Origin: Naegleria gruberi
Taxonomy: Eukaryota
Length of the DNA: 64,000 nt
NCBI GenBank assembly: GCA_000004985.1
Contig: GG738866.1
Reading direction: 5' to 3' (one strand)
In this document: one piece after another, positions 3,119 to 63,144 of the stretch
Numbering within the stretch: position 1 is the stretch's first letter
Layout of the letters: the number at the start of each line of letters is the position of its first letter
Notes under the pieces: model-generated
Told to the model about the DNA's origin: nothing
What the model saw: the letters and a program-made list of their open reading frames with translations, nothing else
Databases searched by the model: none
Position numbers and translations under genes: made by a program

Positions 3119-4043
3119 ATGAAACAAGATCAATGCACTGTTGCTCCTTCACCATCATCCTTGTGTGAAAGTGGTGGATTGTTTCCTGCAGAAATTTGGG
3201 TCCACATTCTTTCCTATCTACCTTCACCGTATATTCCGAATAGTGAGAATAATTCCGATCAAGAATTCAGAAAACAAGTTTTGGAATGGAATCAACTGAG
3301 AGAGAAATCATCCTCTATTTATTATGCTTGTAAATTTGCTATAATGGAGATGGATTTATCTTCATGGTTTCGTATGGATTTGAAAGAAATTGAGACGGCT
3401 TCCAAGTCAATTATACTACCTGGAGTAAAGAGAATAACTTATGAGGAAAATTTTCAAAAGAGATTTTCCAAAGAGAAAGGAGTTAATCCAATTTAATGCA
3501 ACTCAAATGGGTAAGATAATGATGAGACAGGAAAGTGCGTTTCAAATTATCTTGAATGGATTGGCTAATGGTTTTGCAAATGTGAAAAAGTTAAATCTCG
3601 ATGGATGGTACTTTTTGAAAGAGGAAGAATTGCAGAAAATTTGTGAAAATTTGAAATGTTTGGAGAGTTTATCCATTGTCAAATGTCAGAGAATTAGGGA
3701 TTTGGAATTGAGTAAGATTTCTAATCTGAATAATTTGAGAATTCACATCAATCAAATCAAATTAAGAATTAATATTGAAAGGAAAACAAGACAACAAAAT
3801 TTCAACATTGATATAGTTGATGGATTTTCCTTATTTTTCAAAACTTTGGATGGTTTTGGATTTTCAGAGCAATATCATTATTTATACTTTATTAAGGATA
3901 TGAAACCCTTATTGGAAAAGAGAATGGGAGTTTCATGGGAGAAGATTCGGTTCATCTTTGCTGGAAAGGAAATTGAGAATGAAAGAAGATTTGCTGATTA
4001 CTGTGTCTGCAAGGATAGTACCGTGCACGTTATTAAAAGGTAG
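3119..4043 (+). CDS. F-box-like / leucine-rich-repeat protein with C-terminal ubiquitin-like domain; putative 49-nt intron 3482..3530
   Basis: N-terminus AEIWVHILSYLPSP is F-box-like. The middle has LRR-type L..L.L...-L units. The C-terminus KIRFIFAGKEIENERRFADYCVCKDSTVHVIKR aligns to the second half of ubiquitin ([31 protein letters not shown]). Two ORFs in frames 2 and 0 overlap at 3441..3496. The only in-frame GT..AG join is GTTAAT...GACAG at 3482..3530 (length = 1 mod 3). Confidence 0.5.
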
Positions 4044-17747: not shown

Positions 17748-19092
17748 CTAGACCTGATTACTTGATTGTTCTTGGTTTTTTGGTTCTTCATTAGTTTCTG
17801 GTAGATTAGGTAAATTGTCGCCAACAAGTTCCTCATCGTTCTTGTCTTTTGATTGATCTTGATTTGTAACCTCACTAGTTTCTGGTAGGGATGGTAAATT
17901 TTCTTCAATATTCGATTTGCATTTCGATAAACCCTCACTTGGTTCAATTGACTGAACTTTCATTTCACTCTTCTCTGATCGTTCTGATTTCTTAGCAGTA
18001 CTTCTTGCTGACTTGTGATCATGAGATGTGGTATCTAAATTCATCTCCTTAATAGCATGTTCTGCCCTCACAAAAAGTGGATAAAACATCAACAAGCTCA
18101 ACACTGCAAATATCAAAACTGCAAGACAACTGAAAAAGTGCCAAACAACTTTCAGAATTGACTTGTCAGAACCAACGGCAGATGCAACACCAGCTGCAAT
18201 TAATTGACATAGAATGCATAGGATTAATCCAACCAATAATCCAAAAGTTACAATGAATGGATTTGAATAATTTTCCTGTTTTTTAAGGTTTGGATTTCTT
18301 TGTAATTGAATCGTATTGTTTCGTCCAATTGTACGAATCACCACAACACCAGAATAGATGGCAAAGCAAGTATCGAAAATAAGCATTCCACCAGCAAAAA
18401 CAAAACAGATATAATAGGCAATATTAGAATTAGCTTTCGAAACGAAACCCATGTTATAGAGGAAGAATAAAAGAGCTGCAACTAACACTACAAGAAACAT
18501 TAACACAACAAAGAAGCCAAAGATGATATTGGAGAGAATGCTCACATGCTTGAATTGCTTTTTCGACATGGCTCTAATCATGACAGCTGTCTTCCAACTA
18601 CAAGTTTCGAATAATTTAGCATTAAAAGAGAAACTTACAAGATCATTTTGACGTAATATACAATAATGTACAAGACTACATAATTTGAAAACATTAAGAA
18701 TGTAGTCACTGATGCAAAAAAGTTCCAAACAATAAAGTATCCTCTATCGAATATTGTTTCTCCCTTCTCCAGTCGAAACCTCACATTAATATACATGATA
18801 TCAACCATTGTTCTTGAAAGTAGATTCAAGCATCCAATACCAACGAAAACACCGACCATCAGAAAGAGAATTTTTGCATTCCTTTTCAATTCAAGCTTAT
18901 TTCGAATAGTAATATAGTACAGCATTGTAAAGAAACTCATATAAAATATCGAATAGGCAAACAAGTACAATGTACTATTCCCTATCGAAACAGAATTGAC
19001 CCACACTGGTAAAACATAATCCACCGAGGTAATATGACATTCAGACCATCTGAAGTATATTCGAAAGGGAGTAAAGATAATGACGCCATTTT
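17748..19092 (-). CDS. multi-pass membrane protein with acidic Ser/Glu-rich tail, unknown function; at least 2 exons, junctions unresolved
   Basis: ORFs 19024..18635 and 18728..17748 overlap in different frames. At least 7 hydrophobic helices. A possible upstream ATG lies at 19092 (MASLSLLPFEY...). No recognisable conserved family. Confidence 0.35.
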
Positions 19093-19167
19093 TTTGAATT
19101 TGCTTGTCGAAGGGTCTTATTTTGAGTAATTGATGTCGTATGAATAAGAGAGATAAGTTGTTTTTCA

Positions 19168-19475
19168 GTCATGATGTGTTTCAGTATTGCGTGATGCTAA
19201 CTTGTTTTGGAAGTGTTGAGATTGGAAATTTTGGCATTTTTAATTTGCATCTCAAGCAATGGGCATTTTGTGCTGTTATTGGCAGTGGATGAGGGTTTTC
19301 TTTTTGGGAGTTTGGTAATTATTACCATTCCTTTATTCATTAAAACAGTCTGCTGCATTAATCAGTACGCAGACGGTGTAAAAACCACCATGATCGAGGT
19401 CAATCTTGACTCTGAAGGCTCTCTTTACTGAAAATGAGATATTTCATTAAGTTAAAATTTTCTTAATGAATATAA
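19168..19475 (+). repeat. conserved tRNA-Glu upstream module, copy 1 (carries a ~130-nt insertion relative to copy 2)
   Basis: ATGATGTGTTTCAGTATTGCGTGATGCTAAC...TTTTGTGCTGTTATTGG...GAGGGTT...TTTTTGG aligns to 25201..25385. The proximal 40 nt (ATGAATATAATCCCGTG) are also shared with copy 3. Confidence 0.6.
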
Positions 19476-19547
19476 TCCCGTGTAGTCCAATGGCTAGGAT
19501 ACCTGGCTTTCACCCAGGAGGTCCGGGTTCAATTCCCGGCATGGGAG
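19476..19547 (+). tRNA. tRNA-Glu (anticodon UUC)
   Basis: 72-nt cloverleaf TCCCGTGTAGTCCAATGGCTAGGATACCTGGCTTTCACCCAGGAGGTCCGGGTTCAATTCCCGGCATGGGAG. Anticodon loop is CTTTCAC. A T-run terminator follows (ATTTTG). Confidence 0.9.
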
Positions 19548-19641
19548 GATATTTTGCATTGAATTTTTAATTGTTGTTAAAGTTCAATACTTTATTTAAT
19601 TCTCATGTTATTTTACAGGTAATTAGAGAAAAATTTGTCAA

Positions 19642-20640
19642 CTATTTTACAAGTGGTTTGACGATTGGTTTTGTTGGCTTCTTACATGTCTTTCTCTTGA
19701 TACAAATCTTCTTCTTGATTGACTTGCAGCACTTCTTCTTTCCACCAACTAATTTGAATTTCTTACAAATCTTCTTTCCCTTTGAACGTTTCAAACACTT
19801 CTTATAATACTTCTTCTTGATACATCTTGGAGGAATGACAATTGACTTGGCACAATACTTCTTCTTGTTATATTTGACACATTTGGAGAGAGTCTTCTTG
19901 TGTTTACAGAATTTGATGGTCTTATGCTTGGCGCAGAAGAATTTCTTCTTAATGAGACAACACTTCTTGAAAGATTTTCTTTCCTTGCAGTATTTAACCT
20001 TCTTATACTTGGCACATTTCTTTGCCCAGGAGACAATCTTGCACTTTTTAACATATCTACATTTGGCAACCTTCTTATTGTAAGAATCAACAGTGTACTT
20101 GTCGCAGACCTTCTTCTTTTCACACTTCTTGATTGGAACCTTCTTGAATTTCTTACAGACCTTCTTGAAACCCTTCTTGAAGCACTTATTGATAATCTTG
20201 TGCTTGGCACAGAACTTCTTGAAACCCTTCTTGATGCAAATCTTCTTAGTTCCATAAGAATCACAAACTTTCCAATACTTCTTCTTGGCACATCCAACAA
20301 TCTTGTATGCATGCAAGACACACTTCTTTGTTGGCTTACTGTACTTGTCACATTTGGAATATTTCTTATGTTTAAGACATTTACCAGCACCGACAATTGC
20401 ATATTGATCACAGACCTTCTTTTGACCAACGAGTTTGTGTTTCAAACACTTCTTAATCCACTTGTGCTTTAAACATTTTCTCTTACAAATTCTTGGCTTG
20501 TGATACTTGTCAACTACTGGAGGATTGGTTTGATAGCTGTCACTTGCTTGAACTGAAAGGATTGCAAGCAAGAGTAGAATTGCAATTGAAAAGATTAGAT
20601 TTGCTTTCATTTTTTGTTTTTGTTGGATTGGATAGTTCAA
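19642..20640 (-). CDS. secreted Lys/Cys-rich repeat protein, no recognisable homolog
   Basis: Signal-peptide-like MKANLIFSIAILLLLAILSVQA. The mature part is about 35% Lys and 15% Cys, with KKCxKHK / CAKHK units recurring roughly every 8-10 residues. The ORFs on other strands and frames here are by-products of the nucleotide repetitiveness. Confidence 0.5.
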   Translation of the reverse strand: MNYPIQQKQKMKANLIFSIAILLLLAILSVQASDSYQTNPPVVDKYHKPRICKRKCLKHKWIKKCLKHKLVGQKKVCDQYAIVGAGKCLKHKKYSKCDKYSKPTKKCVLHAYKIVGCAKKKYWKVCDSYGTKKICIKKGFKKFCAKHKIINKCFKKGFKKVCKKFKKVPIKKCEKKKVCDKYTVDSYNKKVAKCRYVKKCKIVSWAKKCAKYKKVKYCKERKSFKKCCLIKKKFFCAKHKTIKFCKHKKTLSKCVKYNKKKYCAKSIVIPPRCIKKKYYKKCLKRSKGKKICKKFKLVGGKKKCCKSIKKKICIKRKTCKKPTKPIVKPLVK

Positions 20641-21011
20641 CCAGATGGTGCTAATTTAAACCATTTCGAATTGTTTTTCATTTGGGACAAGCTGAAAATA
20701 GTTGGATGTAAGGTTCCAAATTTGGATAGAAAACTGATTCAATTTACTATTCAAATATCAACTCAGCTTTCCAAAGTATTCTACTTAATTCATGTATTCG
20801 AATTTCATGAGAGAATACTGTTAAATGTTTAACAGAGAACATTTGATATTGTTTTGTGACCAATCGACAGTCTGGTTTTTTCAGTCATTTGTAAAAAAAT
20901 AGTCATTAAGAACAAGAAAATTCTAGGCATGGAGGATAATTTTTTATTTTTATGAAAATTGTTGGATAAATGATAATGAATTAATTGAGGAATGAAGAGT
21001 TTATGAGATTG

Positions 21012-22020
21012 TTAAAACATAGAATCTTGTTTTTGTGTGCGTCTGACTAAAATATTTGGATTGTGCTGAAAGAGTGAGGTTTCAAAATTTGTTTTTCTAT
21101 TTTGGTGGTTTTCAATATTTTCTGATTGGTCTTTCCTGTTTTGGTTCTCAATATCAAACTCACAACACAAGAAACACATGAAACAAATCGCAATAATGTT
21201 GATTGATATTACAATACCATTGATAATACTACAAGCTATAATAGCTCCATTTGGCTTTTTGTTTTTATCAACTGTTCCAAACACAGCTAACAATCCAAAA
21301 TCTACAAAAACTGCCAAGAATGAAAGAAGCACAATCCAATAATTATAAAAAAAACCCATTCTTTGTTTGTCCTTAGTTAAAAACTTGATAAAATCAGAAA
21401 CCCAATGAAGGATGAAAGTACCAACAATTGTCCATCCAAATATTGAACTAATTGATTCATTATACTGTATAAAATTATATGATAACTTGATGAGCCATCT
21501 ATTTGTAAACTCCATAAGAACCTAGTCAACCATATTCCAATTACAACAATATGAAGGTGAGGATTATTTTCTTTAAAGCCATCAAATTTCTTCTTATATT
21601 CCTCAAAGTGGTTTGAAATAACGTTTCGACAAACTTTTCGTCCTTTCTTTTGCAAAAGTGGAAAAAGAGCATGAAACACACTAATAGAACCAAAACATCA
21701 AAAATGACTGTTTCAAAATTGTAAATTGAAGAACCAAACCAAATAGCAGAATTGATAATTAGCATTACCAAGCAGCCATATCCAATCTTATGTGGGTGAT
21801 CATAATCAATACCTAGAAAGATAGTGAAAATAAAGAAAACAGTGAACAATAAACTAAAGATGGCACCCATACTGTCAGTAGAATCAATATTTTGCTGATC
21901 ACCACTTGCAATAATATTAAACAGATCCAAAATGGTTCTATTCTTCGGCTTGATATTTACAAGAACAACTGTAACACAATTAAGTGCTAGCATAATACTA
22001 GAGAAGGACGCTTTGCCCAT
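21012..22020 (-). CDS. multi-pass membrane protein, unknown function; 3 overlapping ORF segments (short introns, junctions unresolved)
   Basis: ORFs 22101..21541, 21679..21377 and 21515..21012 are each rich in hydrophobic helices. Likely start is MGKASFSSIMLALN (ATG at 22018-22020). Confidence 0.35.
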
Positions 22021-22605
22021 TTTTTTGTTATGGTTTACACGTGTTGTGTAGATGTAACGAAAATTTTCAGTGTTGATGCATGTGAATGATCCTCCACACA
22101 TGTTGTTGATGATTGTTATGGTGTAACAACGCCGCGGCTGCTATAAGAAATTACATTGCGTTAATGAAGAGTCGTTTTTTTACCATTTTTTTTCTTCATG
22201 AATTTTACAATTATTTTCACAATCGTATGAAAGAAGAGCGACAATTTTTATATGAATTGAAATTAAGGAATTACACCTGTTTTTAAGGGTACATACATTT
22301 GGAGAATCAACTTTAAGGTTTAATTTCGGAGGATCAAATACGATTGATTATTGATTCATTTGTTGAAGGAATGGCAGAACCAAAGAAGTGGTTCAGCAGC
22401 CATGAAAATTAAGGTTGTGGTTCCACCAGAGGGAAATCACTCTACATGAATTGGTACCTCGATCCTTGTGAGTCTTTCCACTTTTCAGTATATGTGGATA
22501 ACGAATGATACGTAAAGGCTGGTCCTTGCATTGCGTACAGAAAAGGTTTCTAACACCAACTTGGTTAATATCAACGAATTACAAAGTTTCTGACATGGTT
22601 TGAAA

Positions 22606-25039: not shown

Positions 25040-25200
25040 AGTGAAGTTGCAACAATTAACAGTCTATACTGTGAAGATATTTTTTTCAGGAGTGTGTAAC
25101 CTCTAAAGATTGAGTCAATAGATATTTAATTAGCATCTTCAATACTGTTTTAAAAAAGGGGATACTACATACTTTTTAATTTCATTAAGGAAATGTGAAT

Positions 25201-25385
25201 GTAATGATGTGTTTCAGTATTATGTGATGCTAACACTTGTTTGGAAATTTTGGCAATTTTGATTTGTGTCTTGTTTTGTGCTGTTATTGGTTATTGGTGA
25301 GGGTTGACTTTTTGGAATTTTGGATTTTACAATCTCGTTCTGAATCATAAATTTCATGAGGGTCAAAGTTTCATAATGAATGTAA
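25201..25385 (+). repeat. conserved tRNA-Glu upstream module, copy 2
   Basis: AATGATGTGTTTCAGTATTATGTGATGCTAACACTTGTTTGGAAATTTTGGCAATTTTGATTTG...TTTTGTGCTGTTATTGGTTATTGGTGAGGGTTGACTTTTTGGAATTTTGG. About 80% identical to 19168..19330 with indels. Confidence 0.6.
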
Positions 25386-25457
25386 TCCCGTGTAGTCCAA
25401 TGGCTAGGATACCTGGCTTTCACCCAGGAGGTCCGGGTTCAATTCCCGGCATGGGAG
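25386..25457 (+). tRNA. tRNA-Glu (anticodon UUC)
   Basis: Identical 72-nt sequence to 19476..19547. Followed by AATTTTTG. Confidence 0.9.
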
Positions 25458-25899
25458 GATAATTTTTGTTGCAAAGTTATTTGTGATTGTTTATTGGGGT
25501 ATTATTGGGTACTTTTTTATGATTTCCTCTTCACTACAATTCTCAAATATGTTTGCTTGCAAGAAAATGTATTGCCTTAATTCCAATAATTTTCGAATTT
25601 TTGAAGAGAATTTACAATTTCTTCTTCATGAATGATATACGATTCGGTATTGGATAGCCTATCACGTTTTGGCACAATATTGTGCTGTTTCTGCTTCTAT
25701 AAAATTATTACGCACCAAAAGTTTTGAAATTTAGATTGTAAAGTCTAATTCTACATTTACTAAAAAAACTCCATATTAGCATCATACTACTATTAGTTAA
25801 TACCATCTCCAAAATAGGACCTCATCAAAAAATACTAATTCAAAACAATAACAATCATTCTTAAAATAAACTTTAAAAAATACATCAACTTCTCACATA

Positions 25900-36024: not shown

Positions 36025-36835
36025 TTAATAGTAACCACCACCATATGGTGGATATCCCATTGGTGGAGGAACACCATAGGCTTGTTGTTGTGGATATCCA
36101 GTAGTATAAGTTGTTGATTGAGTCATCATTGGTTGTTGCATCATTGGTTGCATCATAGGTTGAGTTTGAACCATTGGCATCATTGTTGGATGCATCATTG
36201 GTTGCTGCATCATAGGTTGTTGCATCATTGGTTGTTGCATCATCATTGGCTGTTGCATCATTGGTTGTTGCATCATTGGTTGCATCATCGGCTGTGACAT
36301 CATGGCTTGACCAAAATCAAGAGCATTCAATTCAACCATCAAAACTCCTGATCTAGCTCCCATTAAATTCAATGTCATTCTTTCTGGAACTCCTCTTCTC
36401 AAAGTATTCAATTGAACAACAGCAGATCCCAATGGATCATCATTACTAATTAAATCCTTGTCATATAAATCAAAAGTGACAGATTCTCTCATAGGATCCA
36501 TAACACTGACAGTGAAACTTTCAAACCAGGCAGGATTCAAAGTCATAGGCTTGGTAGAAGTACGATGTTTAGCACGTCCACATTTAATAATACAATATCT
36601 ATTTATCAAATTTCCAATCAAGTCCGAAATATTCATCATTAAAATATTCGAAAATTTTCATGATGATTTTTTTAATATATTGTTATTATTATATAATTAT
36701 TTAAATTAATAAAATTGATGAAAACAATGATAAACATTTTAATAGACAATATAAAACATACGGATCACTAGTACCTGTAATATCTTTTGCGACAAGATTA
36801 TGTGCACTCAAAACGGTAATATTCAAGGTTGGCAT
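36025..36835 (-). CDS. C2-domain protein with Met/Gln/Pro-rich repeat tail; 2 exons (36835..36762, 36598..36025)
   Basis: Exon 1 is MPTLNITVLSAHNLVAKDITGTSDP. A 163-nt intron (GTATGT...AAATAG, plus 36599..36761) joins it to YCIIKCGRAKHRTSTKPMTLNPAWFESF. Together these give a canonical C2 beta-sandwich core (SDPY...RT....NP.W.E.F). The C-terminus has (PMMQQ)n and ends GYPPYGGGYY. Confidence 0.65.
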
Positions 36836-43731: not shown

Positions 43732-44877
43732 TTAGAAACATTTTCTGTGCACAATGCAAGGGCCAGCCTCTTCGTATTCTTCATTCGTTATCCACATATG
43801 TTGAAAGGTTGAAAGACTCGCCAGGATCGAGCCACCAATCCAGTTAGAGTACTTTCTCTCTGGTGGAGCCACAACCTTAATTTTCATGGCTGTTGGGCTG
43901 AGAGCTACCACTTCTTTGGTCAATCTTTCTGCCATTCCTTCTGTTAACGATAAACCACCTCCAATTAATAAATTTCCATATAAATCCTTTCTATTGTCAT
44001 TGTCAGTTGCTGCAATGGAATTAAAAAATATTTCACCAATTCCTGGTATTTCTTTCCCAATTATTGTGGGATTGAATAATATTTCTGGACATGCAAACCG
44101 TTCGTGAGATAGATTCAACACTTGACCATCTGGTAGTTCATATTCCATATCTAATTCACTAGAACATTGAGTTTTTTCATACTCTTTATCATAATCCAAT
44201 GCTATATAACAAACTTTCTTAATCATTTCCTCCACAATTGATCTTTGATTTGTTAAATTCATTCCCTTACTCTCCTTCAACAAATGAATCATATAATCAA
44301 CCATATTTGATCCTCCGAAATTAAATCTTAAAGTTGATTCTGCAAATGTATATCCCTGAAAAACAGGTTGAATTTGAATTACACCATCTCCTAAACACAT
44401 ACTCAATGCTGTTCCTCTCCCAGATGCATAAACAGCAAGAACAGGAGCTGGTGTCTTGTGAACTCCTCTCATTTCAAACTTTTCAAAACAATATTCCACT
44501 AGTTTTTCAGAATTAGAATTTGGATTCATTACTGCATCTGAAAATAAAACATTACTTCCACGAATATGCTCTTGACTTAATTTCAATTCATTAAAAAACG
44601 TAAATTCCAATAATATATCCATCAAATCCCAATTTTTAACAATTCCATTCTGAATAGGATAGTGAAGATTTAATATTCCTCTTCTACTGTGATTCTTTGC
44701 TTCATCACCAATATAGGTTGATCGTTGACTTGGACAGATCATGGCTGGTAAATATTTTGCTGTCCCGATACAAGAAGAAAAGACTGCACGTGGAGCATCA
44801 TCTCCTGCAAAACCTGCTTGAATAGACGAGCTGCCACAATCTAGAACAAGGTTCAGAGGTTCATCTACTACTGACAT
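43732..44877 (-). CDS. actin-related protein (divergent Arp, actin fold)
   Basis: LVLDCGSSSIQAGFAGDDAPRAVF...GIVKNWDLMDIL...LTEGMAERLTKEV...PERKYSNWIGGSILASLSTFQHMWITNEEYEEAGPCIVHRKCF is collinear with actin over 381 aa but diverges at the ATP- and hydrophobic-plug regions. Confidence 0.75.
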   Translation of the reverse strand: MSVVDEPLNLVLDCGSSSIQAGFAGDDAPRAVFSSCIGTAKYLPAMICPSQRSTYIGDEAKNHSRRGILNLHYPIQNGIVKNWDLMDILLEFTFFNELKLSQEHIRGSNVLFSDAVMNPNSNSEKLVEYCFEKFEMRGVHKTPAPVLAVYASGRGTALSMCLGDGVIQIQPVFQGYTFAESTLRFNFGGSNMVDYMIHLLKESKGMNLTNQRSIVEEMIKKVCYIALDYDKEYEKTQCSSELDMEYELPDGQVLNLSHERFACPEILFNPTIIGKEIPGIGEIFFNSIAATDNDNRKDLYGNLLIGGGLSLTEGMAERLTKEVVALSPTAMKIKVVAPPERKYSNWIGGSILASLSTFQHMWITNEEYEEAGPCIVHRKCF

Positions 44878-44945: not shown

Positions 44946-45017
44946 CTCCCATGCCGGGAATTGAACCCGGACCTCCTGGGTGAAAGCCAGGTATCCTAGC
45001 CATTGGACTACACGGGA
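44946..45017 (-). tRNA. tRNA-Glu (anticodon UUC)
   Basis: Reverse complement is identical to the other two copies. On the minus strand it is followed by a T-rich run (GATAATTTTATTTTTAAAAG). About 40 nt of upstream sequence are shared with the other copies. Confidence 0.9.
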
Positions 45018-45143
45018 ATACATTCAAATTGAAAATATTACCCTCATCAAAATTATTTTTAATTTACATTGTGAATTGATTAGTTATTTTTTGATGGTTA
45101 TTATTGGTGGATACTTCTTTAATCACACAAAATCTTAATTTTA

Positions 45144-48100
45144 TTAAGCATAATAGGAAGGAGAGCTGGTTTGGAATAGGTCATGAAGAGTTCTTAATTG
45201 ATCCTCAGTGAATTTCATTTCATGAATTTGCCACATATCTGAATGGCATTTGATAAATTCTTGGAATGTCTTTTTAACAGTTTCTCTAATAGATTGAACA
45301 CTATCATTGGAGAACTTGGCCAAAAAGACGAGCATTTCTGGCATAAAATCAGGAATGGAATATGGGAATGCCAAAGCAACAGCGCTCAACCCAAGGATAC
45401 CACTGTGACGATCAATACTTTCCTTTGGGAGTTTGTCATTGGTTGTCTTCTTTGGTTTGGTTGCCTTTTCTTGGAATTCAGGAATCAACTTTTTCGAATA
45501 GTCAGTGCTGCTGATCTTTAAGAAACCTGAGAGCGTAATAGAGGCCATTTGTCTAACTTCTGGCTGAGAGTCTCTGAGCATTGCTGTAATAATTTCAAAT
45601 AATTTTGGAAGCTTTTCTTGCAAGAAGAATTGTTGTCTATAAGCAAATATTTGTAAACATTCCAAAAGTGCGCTTCTAATAGACCAATTAGCAAAGTTGG
45701 AACATTCCTTGGTTACAATTTCATCATACAAAAAGTCAATCAATTCATTGGCCAAACGAGAAGTGAATGCATATCCAGAAAGGATAATGATATCATTTTG
45801 GCAAATAACTTGTAAATCCTCATCATGAGAAGTTGTATGTTCATAAATCTTGGATACCAATTTGATATGATTCATTATTTCTCCAGATCCACAGTGAGGA
45901 GAACTTGAGTTGAACAAACTAGCAACAAAGCACAAGACAGTCTTGCTGAGATTCTTAAAGTCAGAGTATTGACGTTCGAATTGTGGGCTCTCTGAAGGAA
46001 GTGATCTTAAAGACTTTTCCATTGATTCAAGTGATCCATAAACCTTGAGGTTGAATTTCCTGAGGAATTCATGTTGTGATTCGTCAGTGGAAGCATTCAC
46101 CAAACCAAATGTTGGAAGATTGTTATGTTCCAATCTTCTTGGATGCCATAAGGATTTAAAGATAAAGGAAATAAACAGTCCTACGTATTCTCTAACTTGT
46201 TCAGAGTGATGAGAAAGAGAAATTGAAAATATATCTTCCAACAATTGTTTCATAATGGTTGGACTTCTCCAACTGATTTCACCAACAATACCATACAAAT
46301 ATTTCAAATATCTAACTTGAGCGTTGCTGTCAGCTTCATTATCCTTCTTTTCGAGGGCAGCTCTGGTCTTCTTAGCAATAAAATCTACAATCCATCCAAT
46401 ACGTCTGATATCTTTATCACAGACAGCAAACTCAAATCCTTCACACAATTCAGAAATACAACTCATAGAACAATTTTCCAAGACTTTTTCAAATATTTCT
46501 GGAATGATGAATTCGTGGATGGCTTTAACCTGTTGATCATAATCCCAGTGTTTCATACCTCTGATTAATCCTCCCATAATTTCAGAAATTAAAGCCACAT
46601 GGTGAGTTTCTTCAGTTTTACCTGTTCCAATAGTTGGCATTAAAAGTGATTGAATGTAAGGTTTACACATATCAAGAATACCAACACTACCAGCTTCACA
46701 TGGGAAAACCTGGAACAAACCCTTAAATAATTGAGCATTAGATTCATTGAAACCATCATCTCTAATACTCAATAACTCAATAAAGTTTTGTACGAAATCC
46801 TCTTCTATTACTGTTGAATAAATTTCCTTTTTGAAAATATTATGTTGCGTGGTATCTTTTGGAGCAGAATAGTCATAAACTTCGACTTTAGAAGGTAAAT
46901 TAAACCATCCAAAGTAGTTCTTCTCATAAAACTTGGCATTCTTGAACTCTTCAGCAGAATTTAAATTGGTACCCAATGCAACCCAATCAAGAGTATTGTG
47001 TTTGGTCTTTGGTTCAGGTTCAACCATTTTCGTTGGTTGTCTTGGCTTGTATTGGCTCAAAATTAAATTGACTGCTTCGTACGAAATTATTCTAGTCTTT
47101 TCTAAATCACTAATCATTTGTCTAATTGTAAATTTAGCAGCTTCAATAGGGAATACTTGATCTGGTCTAATCATTAACATTAAGAAACTGCTGACAAGAG
47201 TTTGGTATTTCCAATGCCATCCTCCATTCATTTTGGCAAGATCTGAAACATTAATGATTAAACTTCTATATTTTTCTCTATCTTGATCAGTTGCAATTTG
47301 AATATGATAGAATGCATTGAAATAGGTTTCATAGAGTTGTGCCAAACGTTGTTGGATACTTTGCTTTTCAATATGGCTGGTTTGACAAAGAATCATAATA
47401 AGTTTAGAACACAAATCCCAATCTCTGATAACACATGAAACTGCAAATGGTTTTTCCAAAATGAAAATAGCACCTGTTCTTTGTTCATCAGTTGAATTCT
47501 TGTCTGCAAGAACATCAATGAGCAGTGGTAAGAAACTCTTAATTACTTTGTCAGAAAACTTATTAATACATGACATTAATACAGATTGAGCACGTTTTCT
47601 AACTTCAGAGTAAGAGTGGAGTGAGAGACGGAACAAATCATCGAGTAATCTTTGATGAGATTTGGTGTAAGGAATAGACTCATTATGTATAACACATCTG
47701 ACTTTGTATTCCAATAGGGCTTGGATTAAAAGTAAATATCTTGGATACTTGTTTGGAGTCTTTGTAAAAACATCCTTATAACTGTGTTGTTTTACAAAAT
47801 CATGAGAAGATTTCTTCTTCTTGTATCTGTATCTAGTGTTACCACCTCTCATAGCTATCATTGGGAAGAATACTTTACAAACCTTTCCAATAAGATTTGG
47901 ATCCTTATCAGATCTATGTTCGAGAATAATAGTAGTAAGTTCATGAAGAGTATCACAAACTTGTTCATATCCCACAGTCAGAGGTACATCAGGACAACGT
48001 TTAGCAACACACAACCCAGCTTCAATCAGTCTAGAGTTTGGATATTGATTCATATCCTCTAGAATATCCTTATCAAATTCTGGGAATAAAGTATTACCAC

Positions 48101-50732
48101 CTCTCATCACATATCTGATAAATATTAAACTATTTTTCAGTTTTTGAATATCAGGAATGTTACCTTCCTTCTCTTTCATAACTTTTACACATGTTTTTAC
48201 ACAATCCAGAGATAAATTGAGATAAGTATTGCAAAGTTCATTAGCAAACCTCAACTCTTCTTGAGATGGAATATGCCAATTAATTTCAAAATCATCCAGT
48301 GAAATAAATTCTCCCCATGAGCTCCAATGAGAATGTTTTTTAAATTCTTCAGTATTCCATTGGCTAGCATTCACAGACTTGAGTTCCATCAAGTAATATT
48401 TTGTAAGAGAACGAAGAATATTTCTGAATAATTTTCCACTTGTCTTGACAACCTTTCTCTTGTCGCTTACATAGCATAAAGATATAATTGTTTCAAGTTG
48501 AGATCTGTACTTTAAGAGGTGATGGCCTGTTCTGTAACAAACCTGTCCTAGGATTTGTAAATAATATTGTGTTTCCATCTCGGTTAAATTCTTAAGCGAT
48601 TTTCCATCTCTATTTACAAGTTTATGATAGAGCATTGGAATAAACATTGCCAATGTCTGTTCAGGATATGCATAACTTAGTGAGGAGCACATGTGTGCAA
48701 TATTCTTTCTTGCATTAATTAAAAAGTTGGTTTCTACAAATTTGTAAATTCTCTTCAAGCAAATATCCAACAAGTCAGTAGACATTTGATTAAACAGTAA
48801 ATCACAAAGACCCCAGAACATACTAGGAGATATTATATCTGAATCACCTTGGTTTGCCTTTGGATCTTGTTGATGAGATAAGACATTGAAGATTCTTTCT
48901 AAAAGTTCAATACTCCACTCTTCGAAAATTCTAATAACCTCAGGAGGTGTTCTATCTCCAATTGAGGAACCTGTTGTACATAATGGAACACAAACCAAGA
49001 GGGAAGTATAGAATTTGAAAGTGGAGAAGGTTTTTGTTGGATCATTTACATCAATGCCAGGCAGTGTTAATTGGAGTAAATTTGAAAGATAATTTGCACC
49101 TTCAGGATAAATAGAATACTTAAGGAGAGGGAAAACAACCAAAGAAAGGGTTTCTAAAGCAGAAATAGTTTGATGAGTACTCGTTAAAGTTTCTAATGCA
49201 TAAAAACTTCTTTCCATTAATGAAGGAAAGACTTCTTCAGGAGAAATGTAAGCCAAATGCTTGAGTGAGTGATTGGCACATGTGGTCATTTGACTACTCT
49301 TTGAGAATAATGATGTCATAGCTAAAGGTTGAACTATTTGAACAAATGCTTTACAGTCATCACTGCTTAATCTATATTCCTCTGGAATCCAAGAATATCC
49401 TCCATTCTTTGAAGGAATATAATTATTCTCAGAGAATTGATTCATACCTCTTTCAATATCCAATCTCTTACCAAATTTTGTACATAAAATGAGAAGGAAA
49501 TCGGCACATTTTGTTGTCCATTGTCCTTCGTTTGAAGGCTGATAAAAGTTGGAGATGGATTTGATTAATTGTTTCAAATATTTAAGGGTATTTGAATTTT
49601 TAGAAATCATCCAAACAATTAATTTAGCTGAATTTGCTAAAAGTAAATTTTTAGCAATATCAAATGGTGTAATTAAATTAAGTTCATCTGATGGATATTC
49701 ATCATAATTCGATGGTAATGGAGTGTTACCAATAGGTAAATCAAAGCATTTCATGACTTTAGTGAAAATATATTCCAAATATGGATCCCAGTTAATATAA
49801 CCAGATTGATCTTGTGACAAATTAGCAAACAGTAAAAAGAAGCTCAAGTCCCAAGTTGGATAAACACCAATCCAATCCCAGATACCCAAAAATTCATCCA
49901 TCCATTTTCCATAGTGATTATTTTTGAATACCTCCTGACTTTTGTTGTCATTTCCTTCCAATCTTGTTGGTAAAAATATACTTAAGAAGGATTGGGCTTT
50001 GAATATTTTGTGATCATTAATACATAACATTGGTCTGAAAAATTCTAGCATTTCTTCAGTAGAATTAGTGGAGAAATACCTCTTGATTTTTCTAACCAAG
50101 TCAATTAGAGCAGCACCATGTTCTCTTGGACTATAGGTAGAAATACGAAATTTCTTGAAATATGTTTGGTCAAGAATATCATAAACTACTCTCCAATCAA
50201 AAGTAATATCGAGTACTTCTCCTTTTTTAATGAGAGAAGACAATCCATAACAACATTTTGCTTGAGTTGAAAAATCAACACTATAGATATTCTTACTAGC
50301 AATCTTTAGGATGTTGTATAATATTAAACACAATTCCTCCTTTTCCTTGATTAGTAGAGGATATTTAATCTCGGTATATCTTTTTAATAAAAGAAGAGAA
50401 TAATCTAAATGTTCCCAGTTAATATTTTCTACACAAAGATCATTTGGAGTATACATTCTAAAATGTTGAAACAATTCCTTCCTCCATTCATCACTTTCCT
50501 CTGGAATTACTTTACTAATCTCAGGTGGAAGGAATTTATGATATTTATACAACATTCTTTCTGTCTTTACTTTTTTGTTTTTGTTTTCTTCATTGTTTGG
50601 TAATTCTGCAATTATGGAACCTGAATCGGATGACAGTGTTGATGATGGTACAATCTCTTTATGAGTGGCATCGTCTTCCTCGTAGGTACGCTTCATTTTT
50701 TTATAGTCTGCTTTTGAATGGAAATTATGCAT
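45144..50732 (-). CDS. PSME4: proteasome activator PA200 / Blm10
   Basis: Intronless 1862-aa HEAT/ARM-like solenoid. The C-terminus ...SSPSYYA* carries the Tyr-Tyr-Ala tail, which I recall docks Blm10/PA200 into the 20S alpha ring. Size and repeat architecture fit. Confidence 0.7.
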   Translation of the reverse strand: MHNFHSKADYKKMKRTYEEDDATHKEIVPSSTLSSDSGSIIAELPNNEENKNKKVKTERMLYKYHKFLPPEISKVIPEESDEWRKELFQHFRMYTPNDLCVENINWEHLDYSLLLLKRYTEIKYPLLIKEKEELCLILYNILKIASKNIYSVDFSTQAKCCYGLSSLIKKGEVLDITFDWRVVYDILDQTYFKKFRISTYSPREHGAALIDLVRKIKRYFSTNSTEEMLEFFRPMLCINDHKIFKAQSFLSIFLPTRLEGNDNKSQEVFKNNHYGKWMDEFLGIWDWIGVYPTWDLSFFLLFANLSQDQSGYINWDPYLEYIFTKVMKCFDLPIGNTPLPSNYDEYPSDELNLITPFDIAKNLLLANSAKLIVWMISKNSNTLKYLKQLIKSISNFYQPSNEGQWTTKCADFLLILCTKFGKRLDIERGMNQFSENNYIPSKNGGYSWIPEEYRLSSDDCKAFVQIVQPLAMTSLFSKSSQMTTCANHSLKHLAYISPEEVFPSLMERSFYALETLTSTHQTISALETLSLVVFPLLKYSIYPEGANYLSNLLQLTLPGIDVNDPTKTFSTFKFYTSLLVCVPLCTTGSSIGDRTPPEVIRIFEEWSIELLERIFNVLSHQQDPKANQGDSDIISPSMFWGLCDLLFNQMSTDLLDICLKRIYKFVETNFLINARKNIAHMCSSLSYAYPEQTLAMFIPMLYHKLVNRDGKSLKNLTEMETQYYLQILGQVCYRTGHHLLKYRSQLETIISLCYVSDKRKVVKTSGKLFRNILRSLTKYYLMELKSVNASQWNTEEFKKHSHWSSWGEFISLDDFEINWHIPSQEELRFANELCNTYLNLSLDCVKTCVKVMKEKEGNIPDIQKLKNSLIFIRYVMRGGNTLFPEFDKDILEDMNQYPNSRLIEAGLCVAKRCPDVPLTVGYEQVCDTLHELTTIILEHRSDKDPNLIGKVCKVFFPMIAMRGGNTRYRYKKKKSSHDFVKQHSYKDVFTKTPNKYPRYLLLIQALLEYKVRCVIHNESIPYTKSHQRLLDDLFRLSLHSYSEVRKRAQSVLMSCINKFSDKVIKSFLPLLIDVLADKNSTDEQRTGAIFILEKPFAVSCVIRDWDLCSKLIMILCQTSHIEKQSIQQRLAQLYETYFNAFYHIQIATDQDREKYRSLIINVSDLAKMNGGWHWKYQTLVSSFLMLMIRPDQVFPIEAAKFTIRQMISDLEKTRIISYEAVNLILSQYKPRQPTKMVEPEPKTKHNTLDWVALGTNLNSAEEFKNAKFYEKNYFGWFNLPSKVEVYDYSAPKDTTQHNIFKKEIYSTVIEEDFVQNFIELLSIRDDGFNESNAQLFKGLFQVFPCEAGSVGILDMCKPYIQSLLMPTIGTGKTEETHHVALISEIMGGLIRGMKHWDYDQQVKAIHEFIIPEIFEKVLENCSMSCISELCEGFEFAVCDKDIRRIGWIVDFIAKKTRAALEKKDNEADSNAQVRYLKYLYGIVGEISWRSPTIMKQLLEDIFSISLSHHSEQVREYVGLFISFIFKSLWHPRRLEHNNLPTFGLVNASTDESQHEFLRKFNLKVYGSLESMEKSLRSLPSESPQFERQYSDFKNLSKTVLCFVASLFNSSSPHCGSGEIMNHIKLVSKIYEHTTSHDEDLQVICQNDIIILSGYAFTSRLANELIDFLYDEIVTKECSNFANWSIRSALLECLQIFAYRQQFFLQEKLPKLFEIITAMLRDSQPEVRQMASITLSGFLKISSTDYSKKLIPEFQEKATKPKKTTNDKLPKESIDRHSGILGLSAVALAFPYSIPDFMPEMLVFLAKFSNDSVQSIRETVKKTFQEFIKCHSDMWQIHEMKFTEDQLRTLHDLFQTSSPSYYA

Positions 50733-60457: not shown

Positions 60458-62799
60458 TTAAGGTGTTGTGCTTTCTTGTGAAGATTCAGTAGTTTCTGTT
60501 GATTCAGTCTTTTCCTCAACGATTGTGGATTGTTCTTGTGGTGGAACTTCAGTTACTTGCTCTTCTGGTTGACTTGTTGGTTCCTCGTTAGTTGATTGTT
60601 CTGTTTGTTCAACTGTTTCCTTAGTTTCTGTTTCGGTTGTTTGTTCAGTTTGGGTGGTGGTAGTTTCCTTAGATTCCTTTTGGGCTTTCTCTTGTTTTTC
60701 TTTAGCACGTTGTTCCACAATTTGCTTTTCCTTTTCAATTATTTCCACGACAGCCTTCACTTTCTCTTCTGTTTCACCAAAGACAGTGATGGAAGAATCC
60801 TTTAAATTGACCTTAACGATAGTATCAGTTTCTGTTTGAATTTTAGATCTTTGTTTGTTAATATTCCTAGCAACCTTAACATCAACCCTCAAAACTTGTT
60901 TGTGTTGAGTTTTTCTTTCATGTTCAAGTTCTTTAGAAATGATGGCTTCAACTTGAGATTTGGCCTTTTGGACTTCATCTTGTTTGTATCCTGTAATCTT
61001 GATAGTGTTTGATTTCTTCACAACAGTTACCCGTGTGTTAGTTTCCTTTTGAATCTTTTGGGAGGCTTCAATAATTACTTCTCCATGAGCTGGCTTTTGG
61101 AGTGGAATTTCAGCAATTGAGGCATCCTTCATGAGTTGTGCAACATGCTTGATAGCAACATCAGCACCTGATCCAGTTCCTGAAATTTTAACTACGTTAG
61201 CCTTCTTGTCGATAACTGTATTGACAACTCCGTCAAGATTTTGAATCTTTTTGAGGTTTTCTCCTTTCAATCCAAACAAGAGATCGATCATATCTTCGTG
61301 AGATTGACCAAGTTTGGTGATTTGAATTGTCTTTTCTTGGAGACCCTTTTCCAAGAATTCGTTAATGAGCTTTCTGGCAGCCTTAATTTGTTCAGTTGAG
61401 CCAGTTATTTTACAAGAACCTTCGAGCTTGTCTACGAAAATATCAGCTCCGGTTTCCTTCTTCCATTGAGAAACAACTCTGGTGAGTGGAACAAACATTT
61501 CCATCTTGAAACGAATTGAAGTTGATTCAGTCTTCTTTTTGGTGGTGAATAACTTTTCAATTAATTCCTTAGCTACAGCAACAGTTTCTGGAGTACCCTT
61601 AATAACAACTTGACTCAACTCCTTATTGATATTGACATCAGATCCAGATTTTTCTCTGATACTCTTAATGGTGGCACCCTTTTTACCAAAAACTTTTCCA
61701 ATCATTTCTGGATCAATGTTCATCTTTTCTGTGTGAACAAACTTTGAGAGACTATCAACTTCTTCTTGGATTTGCAATCTCTTGAGAGTGAGTTCTGTAA
61801 TTTCATTTTTAATGTCTGATCCAGTAACAACAGCTTCTCTGCTCTTGGTATCAATTAATTCAAGCAATTCCTTTCTTTCCTTCTTGAGCTGAGCAATTTG
61901 CTTTCTAGCCTTGGTGATGAATTTCTTCAATTCGTCAGATCCAGTGACTGATTCAGAAGCCTCTACAAGCATTGGTTCGTATTGTTGTTTAGCTCTCTTT
62001 AAAGCCTTCTTCTTTTCTGAAATTTCCTTTTCAGCCTTTTGGAAATTATTAACAACAATTTGGTATCGTTTGTGAACATCGTGTTGTTTGACAAGTATAT
62101 TCTCATATTCGTCGTATAATCTTTTAGCATCTCTCAACTTGTTGAATTTTGTCTTGAGTTGTTTCAATTCAGATTCTGGTGTTTCCTTAGATTCAAGTTT
62201 AGCCTCAACCTCACTCATAGCCTTGTTGTATGCAGCTACAGTAGAGTATGGCAAAGAAGATTTCTTAGCAATAATAATTTCTTTCTATTTTGAGAAAGAT
62301 CCAAATAATTCCGAAATGAATATGTTATGTAAAATGTTGTACATACCAATGAAGCTCTTTCATTATCTATTGCTCCCTTTTCCTCTTCAAGATTTTGTTT
62401 GTTTACCAAAGCAGTATCATAATCAACTTCGAATGATCTCAACTTGGATTTAATTAAATTCTTCTTTTCTCTTTCCAATTTATTTTCCTCAAGTTTTGAT
62501 TCAGCTTCAGCCAATTTTTGTTTGATTTCACTTTCAATTTTATCAATTTGTTGATTGAGACTCTTTACACGTTCTCTAGTTTCACTCAACTCTTTGTTAC
62601 TCAACACGGAAGATTCCTTGAGTGTTTTAGAAAGATTACTAGTATGAGATTTAATTAACTTGTTGATTTCACTGAGACGCTTCTTCTTTTCCTTTTCAAT
62701 ACGGATTACATCATCAAGAGTCAAGGAGACTTGTGGTGCTGTTGTTGTATTCCCTTCTTCAATAAAAGTTGGTTCTTCTTCCGTAGGTTGTGAAAGCAT
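60458..62799 (-). CDS. multi-KH-domain RNA-binding protein with N-terminal coiled coil and acidic Thr/Glu-rich C-terminus; at least 2 exons
   Basis: KH GxxG cores: VFGKKGATIKSIREKSG, LFGLKGENLKKIQNLDGV and ITGSTEQIKAARKLI. The upstream exon (start ATG at 62797-62799, MLSQPTEEEP...) joins through an intron of about 70 nt (GTATGT...AAATAG near 62285-62355) to ...KEIIIAKKSSLPYSTVAAY.... Confidence 0.5.
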
Positions 62800-63144
62800 T
62801 TTTTCTATTATGAAAATTCGGAAGCCTTTCAAATGATGAATTTTGAGCGCGAAAAGTCCAAGTTGCAACTTCATGCAGACGATCAAGTCATTTTACAAGT
62901 GTTGTCATGATGATTGTTTTTAATGAATTTCGGAATTTTAAAAATGATCATTTCCCAAGGAGGAACATTATCTTCTAATTTGAATCTTTTTCCTTCCAAC
63001 AACATAACTTATTTATCAACACTGATGAATTATTAATATTAATTTTATCACAATTGTTCCAGTGGATAAGGAATTAGAACAATGCAAATGTTACAACTTC
63101 CAAGTAAAAAACAATAACTATAACACATCAATTTTAAAAAAAAA

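What the first reader, a model, noticed from the sequence alone, without database searches (positions are those of the whole stretch)
19168..19547. Three tRNA-Glu(UUC) genes share upstream sequence; two carry a ~160-nt homologous upstream module
Copies at 19476(+), 25386(+) and 44946(-) are identical and end in T-run terminators. All share about 40 nt immediately upstream (ATGAGGGT.A...TGAATGTAATCCCGTG). Copies 1 and 2 also share a distal block of about 160 nt that begins ATGATGTGTTTCAGTAT..GTGATGCTAAC and contains TTTTGTGCTGTTATTGG...GAGGGTT. Copy 1 has an extra ~130-nt insertion. This could be a conserved Pol III upstream promoter, or a small RNA co-transcribed with the tRNA. The module begins with a C-box-like UGAUGU and contains CUGA motifs, although the terminal-stem pairing is poor. 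A third possibility is a tRNA-linked dispersed repeat or retroposon footprint.
Basis: seen in the sequence. Interest (0 to 1): 0.5.

Follow-up and report, generated by a model that had tools for sequence, protein, structure and literature searches.

The report
Duplicated tRNA-Glu genes sharing flanks
Three identical glutamate tRNA genes in this Naegleria gruberi segment share upstream DNA most likely because they are short copies of one ancestral gene, so the finding is real but ordinary.

Summary
The window is Naegleria gruberi nuclear DNA. There are three identical tRNA-Glu(UUC) genes with T-run terminators. About 40 nt of 5' flank is shared by all three. A distal block upstream of copies 1 and 2 is shared at 82% identity over 123 aligned positions, with two short indels inside it. 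A further ~100-nt insertion in copy 1 lies between that block and the proximal region.

The distal block has no Rfam match and no stable or conserved fold on either strand. It has no exact C box, no D box at a conserved position and no conserved reading frame. It carries 6-7 sense-strand T-runs, which should stop Pol III before the tRNA. Its identity matches that of an actin pseudogene lying between copies 1 and 2, so neutral decay is enough to explain it. The genes flanking copies 1 and 2 are unrelated, so these are short dispersed duplicates rather than a large segmental duplication. A truncated fourth tRNA-Glu and the actin pseudogene show duplication and decay at work in this region.

The proximal -40..-1 region may be a Pol III upstream element specific to this tRNA family, but copy 1 has lost its TGAGGGT core. 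No other N. gruberi tRNA locus could be reached, so a genome-wide count is still needed.

The parts
19476..19547 (+). tRNA-Glu(UUC) copy 1. The A box (TAGTCCAATGG) and B box (GGTTCAATTCC) are intact, and the trailer is ATATTTTGCATTGAATTTTT.
25386..25457 (+). tRNA-Glu(UUC) copy 2, identical to copy 1. The trailer is ATAATTTTTG.
44946..45017 (-). tRNA-Glu(UUC) copy 3, identical to copies 1 and 2. The trailer is ATAATTTTATTTTT. It lies between the PA200/Blm10 gene (45144-50732, -) and an actin-like gene (43732-44877, -).
19168..19331 (+). Distal upstream module, copy 1. It holds three blocks homologous to copy 2 and contains TGAGGGT at 19290. Two indels relative to copy 2 (14 nt and 11 nt) lie inside it.
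25201..25330 (+). Distal upstream module, copy 2. It contains TGAGGGT at 25298 and is preceded by TGAATGTAA (25195-25203), the same 9-mer that precedes the tRNA.
19332..19443 (+). Insertion of about 100 nt found only in copy 1. It is G+C-richer than its surroundings and contains hairpins (the 19316-19440 stretch folded has z = -2.1). It is flanked by the direct repeat TTCATTAA (19338-19345 and 19444-19451) and matches nothing else in the window.
   Evidence: the direct repeat was read from the sequence
19433..19475 (+). Proximal 5' flank of copy 1. It is homologous to copies 2 and 3, but the TGAGGGT core is replaced by TTAAGTT.
   Evidence: (D2)
25343..25385 (+). Proximal 5' flank of copy 2: TTCATGAGGGTCAAAGTTTCATAATGAATGTAA, with TGAGGGT at -29.
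45018..45056 (-). Proximal 5' flank of copy 3: TTGATGAGGGTAATATTTTCAATTTGAATGTAT, with TGAGGGT at -29. The homology to copy 2 ends near -43.
   Evidence: (I1, I2)
20919..20962 (+). Truncated fourth tRNA-Glu. Only the last ~22 nt of the gene and a trailer related to that of copy 3 remain.
   Evidence: I7; score 45; shuffle maximum 33
22269..22561 (+). Actin pseudogene fragment, 80-90% identical to the actin-like gene next to copy 3. It is frameshifted, has an internal deletion and lacks the 5' half. It sits in the same order and orientation relative to the tRNA remnant as in the copy 3 locus.
   Evidence: (I3, I4)

Best explanation
The three loci, plus a truncated fourth, are paralogous copies of one N. 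gruberi tRNA-Glu(UUC) gene. They were spread by copying short pieces of DNA, each holding the tRNA, part of its 5' flank and about 20-30 nt of trailer.

Copies 1 and 2 are the most closely related pair. Their shared piece ran from about -185 to +27 in copy 2 coordinates. It has since been eroded by substitutions (18% of positions), two small indels and a ~100-nt insertion in copy 1. On this reading the distal ~130-160-nt module is leftover flanking homology with no function of its own.

The genes themselves are ordinary type-2 Pol III units, with internal A and B boxes and a T-run terminator. The ~40 nt just upstream is where TFIIIB and the start site would lie. Its retention in all three copies is probably due partly to shared ancestry and partly to mild selection on a family-specific upstream or leader sequence.

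Shown here: the identities, the homology boundaries, the absence of RNA-gene features, the unrelated flanking genes, and the decayed tRNA-actin duplicate. Inferred: the copying mechanism, and any promoter role for the proximal region.
For: Organism and background. The window is N. gruberi: the actin-like ORF is 100% identical to NAEGRDRAFT_48860. This genome is reported to carry 924 tDNAs (PMC2888827), so many recent paralogues are expected. Three tRNA genes in 64 kb fits that density.

Extent of homology. The genes flanking copies 1 and 2 are not paralogues. No other DNA similarity surrounds them. Each pair of copies has different homology limits: 1-2 from -308/-185 to +27, and 2-3 from about -43 to +18. 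The remnant shares about 28 nt of trailer with copy 3.

Neutral benchmark. The module is 82.1% identical with 25 gap columns. A clearly non-functional actin pseudogene in the same region is 80-90% identical to its parent gene.

Duplication and decay in the region. A tRNA-Glu 3' remnant (20919-20962) and the actin pseudogene (22269-22561) repeat the tRNA-then-actin order of the copy 3 locus on the other strand.

Turnover of position. The PA200 orthologous loci in N. lovaniensis, Willaertia magna and a metagenomic Naegleria contain no tRNA gene.

No independent gene in the module. There is no Rfam match and fold z-scores range from -0.7 to +0.6. There is no proper C/D architecture. The reading frames differ between the two copies (read). 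Six to seven sense-strand T-runs are present.
Against: The proximal 40 nt is still 75% identical between copies 2 and 3, although all similarity stops abruptly beyond about -43 and +18. This would be odd for pure neutral decay of an old duplicate, and it hints at constraint or at a very short copied unit.

Four of the six TGAGGGT heptamers in the window (both strands) lie upstream of tRNA-Glu genes in the sense orientation. Two of them are at exactly -29.

In copy 2 the 9-mer TGAATGTAA directly precedes both the module and the tRNA. This is unexplained.

No genome-wide census was possible. The module could be present at many more loci than the two seen here.
Confidence: 0.6

Rival explanations
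1. The proximal motif TGAGGGT-N(17-18)-TGAATGTA(A/T), with TGAGGGT starting at -29 and the second element ending at -1, is a functional upstream element for Pol III on this tRNA family or on N. gruberi tRNA genes in general. It would be a TFIIIB-binding, start-site or leader element. The upstream TGAGGGT in the distal module could be a second, auxiliary copy.
For: The 40-nt identities are far above chance. TGAGGGT lies at exactly -29 in copies 2 and 3, and four of the six occurrences in the window lie upstream of tRNA-Glu. The similarity between copies 2 and 3 is confined to about -43..+18, as expected if only the functional parts survive. Upstream motifs specific to tRNA genes that read the same codon are described for animals, and TATA/CAA motifs for plants (PMC3082873).
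Against: Copy 1 lacks the proximal TGAGGGT (it reads TTAAGTT), yet its tRNA gene is intact. Between copies 1 and 2 the proximal region (75%) is no better conserved than the distal block (82%). The distal TGAGGGT sits at -88 in copy 2 and at -186 in copy 1, so its spacing is not kept. No other N. gruberi Pol III gene was available for comparison.
Confidence: 0.25
2. The module is the footprint of a mobile element that targets tRNA genes, or part of a mobile tRNA-carrying cassette: a solo LTR, a 5'-truncated non-LTR element or a SINE-like unit. Such an element could help explain the 924 tDNAs.
For: The duplicates are short and dispersed, with unrelated flanking genes. The 5' boundary of the copy 1-2 homology is sharp. 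The copy 2 module is bracketed by an exact TGAATGTAA repeat. The three copies share their tRNA-proximal end but extend to different lengths on the 5' side. The position of copy 3 is not conserved in related species.
Against: Copy 1 has no matching direct repeat around the module. There is no poly(A) tail, no TG...CA termini with a consistent target-site duplication, and no ORF remnant. Only two module copies occur in about 125 kb of Naegleria-lineage DNA examined. The homology limits differ for every pair, unlike an element with fixed ends. The similarity between the pre-module sequence and the proximal region is not significant.
Confidence: 0.08
3. The module encodes a small RNA. Either it is a C/D-box snoRNA or other RNA co-transcribed with the tRNA, or it is a divergently transcribed small RNA that uses the tRNA's A and B boxes as its promoter, as in kinetoplastids.
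For: C-box-like AUGAUGU and GUGAUGC lie at the module's 5' end, and CUGA motifs lie downstream. The antisense strand has few T-runs. Naegleria and the kinetoplastids both belong to Discoba (own knowledge).
Against: There is no Rfam match on either strand at E<=10. MFE z-scores are -0.16, +0.59, -0.13 and -0.73. Every C-like motif has a mismatch, the D boxes lie 140 nt versus 245-261 nt away at non-homologous positions, and no terminal stem is conserved. Six to seven sense-strand T4-T5 runs, including an internal T5 in copy 1, would terminate Pol III. The module-to-tRNA spacing differs by 123 nt between the copies, which does not fit a promoter that depends on spacing. The indels fall inside the supposed RNA.
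Confidence: 0.04

Closest known systems
Upstream motifs shared by tRNA genes that read the same codon, described for animal genomes (Zhang et al. 2011, PMC3082873)
   Same: Paralogous tRNA genes with the same anticodon share sequence in the ~50 nt upstream, where TFIIIB binds. The mature tRNA sequences are identical.
   Different: Only three genes from one region were seen here, so shared ancestry cannot be separated from selection. One of the three lacks the core motif. There are no functional or genome-wide data for Naegleria.
Rapid turnover and relocation of eukaryotic tDNAs by duplication and rearrangement (Bermudez-Santana et al. 2010, PMC2888827)
   Same: N. gruberi is reported there with 924 tDNAs. 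Here the tDNA position is not conserved in sister taxa, and a truncated tRNA remnant and a linked pseudogene record duplication and decay.
   Different: That study did not examine flank homology in Naegleria. The copied units here are very short (about 135-300 bp) and dispersed, and the mechanism is unknown.
Retrotransposons that target tRNA genes (Ty3 and Ty1 in yeast; TRE5-A and DGLT-A in Dictyostelium; PMC6101501, PMC5006619)
   Same: Repeated DNA found immediately upstream of tRNA genes in a gene-dense protist genome.
   Different: No LTR termini, no consistent target-site duplication, no poly(A) tail and no ORF remnants were found. The shared sequence abuts the tRNA at -1, whereas those elements insert about 15-50 bp upstream. 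Only two copies were seen.
Kinetoplastid small RNA genes (U6, U3, 7SL) that depend on a divergent upstream tRNA gene (own knowledge; no paper consulted here)
   Same: A tRNA gene with a conserved neighbour about 100-200 bp upstream, in a member of Discoba.
   Different: No small RNA family was detected on either strand. The spacing is not fixed (123 nt difference) and there is no conserved fold.
Dicistronic tRNA-snoRNA genes in plants (own knowledge)
   Same: The idea of a snoRNA physically linked to a tRNA gene.
   Different: In plants the snoRNA lies downstream within one Pol III transcript. Here the module is upstream, interrupted by T-runs, and lacks canonical C/D boxes.

Membership tests
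Type-2 Pol III tRNA gene | Cloverleaf scoring above the Rfam/ARAGORN thresholds, with a UUC anticodon | tested here: met
   RF00005 scores 67 bits against a gathering threshold of 29 at all three loci. ARAGORN agrees.
Type-2 Pol III tRNA gene | Internal A box and B box, and a T-run terminator just downstream | tested here: met
   TAGTCCAATGG and GGTTCAATTCC can be read in the sequence. T4/T5 runs lie within 4-20 nt of the 3' end.
C/D-box snoRNA | C box RUGAUGA near the 5' end and D box CUGA near the 3' end, at homologous positions in both copies | tested here: not met
   Only one-mismatch C-like motifs are present. The D boxes lie 140 nt (copy 2) versus 245-261 nt (copy 1) away, in non-homologous sequence.
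C/D-box snoRNA | Terminal stem of 4-6 bp that brings the C and D boxes together | tested here: not met
   The best contiguous pairing is 2-5 bp. It differs between the copies and is not conserved.
C/D-box snoRNA | Guide of 10-21 nt complementary to rRNA or snRNA, upstream of D or D' | not testable with these tools
Any curated RNA family (Rfam 15) | Covariance-model match | tested here: not met
   Nothing but the tRNA reached significance in 19000-19600 or 25050-25500 at E<=10, on either strand.
Structured non-coding RNA in general | Fold more stable than shuffled sequence, and conserved between the copies | tested here: not met
   Z-scores range from -0.73 to +0.59. The one long hairpin in copy 1 depends on the 14-nt insertion found only in that copy.
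Pol III upstream promoter element (plant TATA/CAA type, or anticodon-specific motif) | Conserved motif at a fixed position within about -50..-1 in the gene family | tested here: inconclusive
   TGAGGGT lies at -29 in two of the three copies, and TGAAT(G/A)TA(A/T) at -9..-1 in all three. The sample is too small and is confounded by common descent.
Pol III upstream promoter element | Recurrence at other Pol III genes of the genome, and an effect on transcription | not testable with these tools
   No other N. gruberi tRNA locus could be retrieved.
Footprint of a retrotransposon that targets tRNA genes (solo LTR or non-LTR) | Constant element ends with a target-site duplication, and LTR TG...CA termini or a poly(A) tail | tested here: not met
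   A 9-nt repeat flanks the copy 2 module only, and none flanks the copy 1 module. There is no poly(A) tail.
Footprint of a retrotransposon that targets tRNA genes | Many genomic copies, and related full-length elements that encode RT or IN | not testable with these tools
   Only 64 kb of N. gruberi DNA was available, and it holds two copies.
Kinetoplastid-type tRNA-dependent small RNA gene | Divergent small RNA gene at a fixed distance of about 95-100 bp from the tRNA A box | tested here: not met
   The conserved blocks lie at -185..-63 in copy 2 and at -308..-161 in copy 1. No snRNA or 7SL match was found.
Dispersed short DNA duplicates (paralogous flanks) | Collinear homology blocks broken by indels, identity similar to local neutral DNA, and unrelated surrounding genes | tested here: met
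   Searches give 82% identity with 25 gap columns. The pseudogene benchmark is 80-90%. The flanking proteins are unrelated.

The most novel reading that the evidence does not exclude
N. gruberi's unusually large tDNA complement (924 genes) may have been built by the spread of short, self-contained tRNA cassettes. Each cassette would carry its own upstream Pol III element (TGAGGGT at -29, and TGAATGTAA at -9..-1) and its own terminator. The module upstream of copies 1 and 2 would then be the longer form of such a cassette, present at many tRNA-Glu loci across the genome. That would point to a lineage-specific, family-specific Pol III promoter and a dedicated way of copying tRNA genes in a deep-branching eukaryote.
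Probability: 0.12. Interest if true: 0.55.

Novelty: new member of a known kind. Interest (0 to 1): 0.18.

Why it matters
As it stands this is a routine case. Paralogous tRNA genes keep some flanking similarity after duplication, and there is a possible family-specific upstream motif of a kind already described in animals and plants.

It would matter modestly if a whole-genome survey showed that the proximal motif is a general feature of Naegleria Pol III genes, because nothing is known about Pol III promoters in Heterolobosea. It would also matter if the short tRNA cassettes turned out to have constant ends. That would suggest a mechanism behind the expansion to 924 tDNAs.

The local record is a tidy example of tDNA turnover. 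It comprises three intact copies, one truncated copy and a linked actin pseudogene, and the tRNA gene is absent from the orthologous locus in sister taxa.

Tried and rejected
- **More N. gruberi tRNA-Glu loci.** Two JGI metagenome scans, one with an exact and one with a degenerate tRNA-Glu pattern, gave 0 hits. Two IMG/VR scans, for the tRNA and for the module, gave 0 hits.
- **Spurious ORFs as a handle on other loci.** I used the antisense ORF that spans the copy 2 module as a protein query, hoping gene callers had called it on other assemblies. No candidate was found. The sense-frame ORF across the tRNA, searched against 1.84 billion representatives, gave 117 hits. The 25 whose sequences I fetched are spurious ORFs over tRNA-Glu genes of other organisms, and none of those 25 carries the Naegleria peptide.
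- **Orthologous loci.** The PA200 orthologues in N. lovaniensis, Willaertia and a metagenomic Naegleria contain no tRNA gene, so no cross-species comparison of the flanks was possible.
- **Close strain.** An ENA/Logan sample (ERR1078381) holds N. gruberi-like DNA. Look-ups of the F-box ORF, the ABCF ORF, an ORF near the window's left edge (3441-4043) and two spurious ORFs found nothing on record.
- **Larger segmental duplication.** Rejected: the neighbouring proteins are unrelated.
- **Module as a degenerate tRNA or an internal duplicate of the proximal region.** The local alignments were not significant.
- **Module as coding sequence.** Rejected: the frames differ between the copies and the indels are not multiples of three.
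- **Literature.** Searches found nothing on Naegleria Pol III promoters or tRNA-linked repeats.

Full report
**Source and setting.** The window is AT-rich (about 33% G+C) and densely packed with long open reading frames. The actin-like ORF at 43732-44877(-) is 100% identical to NAEGRDRAFT_48860 of Naegleria gruberi, on a 469-kb contig. The finding therefore concerns nuclear tRNA genes of a heterolobosean amoeba. A published survey credits this genome with 924 tDNAs, against 65-91 in kinetoplastids (PMC2888827). That is about one per 44 kb, so three in 64 kb is unremarkable.

**The observation.** ARAGORN and Rfam agree on three tRNA-Glu(UUC) genes, at 19476-19547(+), 25386-25457(+) and 44946-45017(-). 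They are identical over 73 nt, carry normal A and B boxes, and are followed by T4/T5 runs.

The 40 nt immediately upstream are 30/40, 30/40 and 25/40 identical without gaps for copy pairs 1-2, 2-3 and 1-3. Random 40-mers from the window average 12 matches and never exceeded 25 in 20,000 draws. Copies 2 and 3 both read (C/G)ATGAGGGT...TTTCA...TGAATGTA(A/T), with TGAGGGT starting at exactly -29. Copy 1 keeps TTTCAT...TTTC...AATGAATATAA but has TTAAGTT where the others have GAGGGT.

Further upstream, copies 1 and 2 share three collinear blocks at 91%, 87% and 82% identity, with blastn E-values of 2.5e-7, 2.4e-4 and 1e-3. Overall there are 123 aligned positions at 82.1% identity, plus 25 gap columns. 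The extra length in copy 1 totals 123 nt and is made up of three indels:

- A 14-nt indel. Read from the sequence, it looks like a slippage duplication around TTGGAA.
- An 11-nt indel.
- A G+C-richer insertion of about 100 nt (19332-19443), bracketed by the direct repeat TTCATTAA.

**Is it part of a larger duplication?** No. The proteins encoded on either side of copy 1 show no similarity to those on either side of copy 2. No other DNA similarity links the two neighbourhoods. The copy 2-copy 3 similarity is even shorter, about -43 to +18. These are short dispersed duplicates of roughly 135-300 bp.

**A local record of duplication and decay.** At 20919-20962(+), between copies 1 and 2, lies a truncated tRNA-Glu. 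Only the last ~22 nt of the gene survive, followed by a trailer related to that of copy 3 (alignment score 45, shuffle maximum 33).

About 1.3 kb further along the same strand (22269-22561) is a frameshifted, internally deleted fragment of the actin-like gene that follows copy 3. It is 80% identical over 218 nt and 90% over 103 nt. The tRNA-then-actin order and orientation match the copy 3 locus on the opposite strand. This is most simply read as a decayed copy of that block.

The pseudogene gives a local benchmark. DNA with no function here still shows 80-90% identity to its parent, the same range as the upstream module (82%). Neutral decay after duplication is therefore enough to explain the distal module.

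**Position is not conserved across species.** The PA200/Blm10 gene next to copy 3 (Pfam) has orthologues in N. lovaniensis (74% identity), a metagenomic Naegleria (71%) and Willaertia magna (65%). The 6-25 kb around each contains no tRNA gene at all. This fits the rapid tDNA turnover described by Bermudez-Santana et al..

**Is the module an RNA gene?** Nothing supports this:

- Rfam finds only the tRNA, even with permissive filters at E<=10 on both strands.
- Minimum-free-energy z-scores for the module are -0.16 and +0.59 (sense) and -0.13 and -0.73 (antisense).
- The one long hairpin predicted in copy 1 depends on the 14-nt insertion found only in that copy.
- The C-box-like motifs (AUGAUGU, GUGAUGC) each carry a mismatch.
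- CUGA motifs lie 140 nt away in copy 2 but 245-261 nt away in copy 1, in non-homologous sequence.
- No terminal stem is conserved.
- The sense strand carries seven T4-T5 runs in copy 1 and six in copy 2 between the module start and the tRNA. These include an internal T5 in copy 1.

The tRNA genes themselves terminate at T4/T5 runs, so Pol III could not read from the module into the tRNA. A full-length Pol III transcript of the module is also unlikely.

A kinetoplastid-style divergent small RNA gene driven by the tRNA's internal boxes (own knowledge) is contradicted by the 123-nt difference in spacing between the copies. The module is not coding either: the open frames differ between the copies and the indels are not multiples of three.

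**Is it a promoter?** For the distal module there is no positive evidence. For the proximal 40 nt the question stays open.

In favour:

- It occupies the region where TFIIIB and the transcription start lie in other eukaryotes.
- It is the only flank shared by all three copies.
- TGAGGGT is at -29 in two copies.
- Four of the six TGAGGGT heptamers in the window (both strands) lie upstream of tRNA-Glu in the sense orientation.

Upstream motifs specific to tRNA genes reading the same codon are documented in animals, and general TATA/CAA motifs in plants (PMC3082873). Such an element would therefore be a new instance of a known kind.

Against:

- Copy 1 has lost the heptamer although its gene is intact.
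- Between copies 1 and 2 the proximal region (75%) is no better conserved than the presumably neutral distal block (82%).
- Three genes related by descent cannot separate ancestry from selection.

**Is it a mobile-element footprint?** The copies are short and dispersed, and the copy 1-2 homology begins abruptly. In copy 2 the 9-mer TGAATGTAA precedes both the module (25195-25203) and the tRNA (25377-25385). This looks like a target-site duplication. However, copy 1 has no counterpart, and the wider similarity between the pre-module sequence and the proximal region is not significant. There is no poly(A) tail, LTR-type end or ORF remnant, and every pair of copies has different homology limits. 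I keep this as a minor rival, and the repeat in copy 2 stays unexplained.

**What could not be done.** The decisive test is a count of the module and the proximal motif across all N. gruberi tDNAs, and it was out of reach. These routes failed:

- Metagenome and viral scans.
- Two searches that used spurious ORFs over the locus as protein handles.
- Exact-protein look-ups.

One further look-up did find a near-identical strain, present in ENA/Logan sample ERR1078381. It differs from the window by 7 mismatches and 3 indels in 1.7 kb. No look-up reached its versions of the tRNA loci.

**Verdict.** The most likely explanation is ordinary: recently duplicated, dispersed copies of one tRNA-Glu gene that still carry decaying flanking homology. 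The -40..-1 stretch may also serve as a family-specific Pol III upstream or leader sequence. The snoRNA or co-transcribed small RNA idea is rejected. The mobile-cassette idea is unlikely but cannot be excluded without the whole genome.

Scores:

- Best explanation: about 0.6.
- Functional proximal promoter as the main reason for the conservation: about 0.25.
- Mobile-element footprint: about 0.08.
- Small RNA gene: about 0.04.
- Interest: low (about 0.18).
- Novelty: a new member of a known kind.

Noticed in passing
window 20919-20962 (+): A truncated tRNA-Glu gene. Only the last ~22 nt survive (AATTCTAGGCATGGAGGATAA), followed by a trailer homologous to that of copy 3. The breakpoint falls inside the T-loop.
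   Followed up: partly
window 22269-22561 (+): An actin pseudogene fragment, 80-90% identical to the actin-like gene at 43732-44877(-). It is frameshifted, has lost about 330 nt internally and lacks the 5' half. Together with the tRNA remnant it repeats the tRNA-then-actin order of the copy 3 locus. Two ORFs on the opposite strand (21012-21515 and 21541-22101) lie between the two remnants.
   Followed up: partly
window 19332-19443 (+): An insertion of about 100 nt present only in copy 1. It is G+C-richer than its surroundings and contains several hairpins (for example GTCTGCTGC...GCAGAC). The 19316-19440 stretch folded gives z = -2.1. It is flanked by the 8-nt direct repeat TTCATTAA and has no other copy in the window or the fetched loci. 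Its origin is unknown.
   Followed up: partly
window 25195-25203 and 25377-25385 (+): The exact 9-mer TGAATGTAA (10 nt if the following T is counted) immediately precedes both the distal module and the tRNA in copy 2. Copy 1 has no equivalent repeat. This could be chance, a target-site duplication or a repeated start-site motif.
   Followed up: partly
window 45144-50732 (-); L001, L002, L003: A PA200/Blm10 proteasome activator gene (1862 aa). Synteny downstream of it breaks in N. lovaniensis and Willaertia magna. Neither has the tRNA-Glu or the divergent actin-like gene there.
   Followed up: partly
window 43732-44877 (-): A divergent actin-like protein (NAEGRDRAFT_48860). The next-best hits in the protein database are only about 50% identical. 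No close orthologue from another Naegleria species appeared among the top 120 hits.
   Followed up: no
window 62365-64000; L004, L005: ENA/Logan sample ERR1078381 (PRJEB11402) contains DNA nearly identical to this N. gruberi segment: 7 mismatches and 3 indels over 1.7 kb, including an identical Snf7 protein. A very close strain is therefore present in that data set.
   Followed up: partly
window 36109-36315: A run of 15-nt tandem repeats (CATCATTGGTTGTTG-like, 10 overlapping 48-nt copies) inside the ORF at 36025-36639(-). It is presumably a coding low-complexity repeat.
   Followed up: no
window 19642-20640 (-): A Lys/Cys-rich repetitive ORF (332 aa, no Pfam match) just downstream of copy 1. 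Long ORFs overlap it on both strands (19791-20429(-) and 19900-20472(+)), and it contains internal CTTCTTGAA-type repeats.
   Followed up: no
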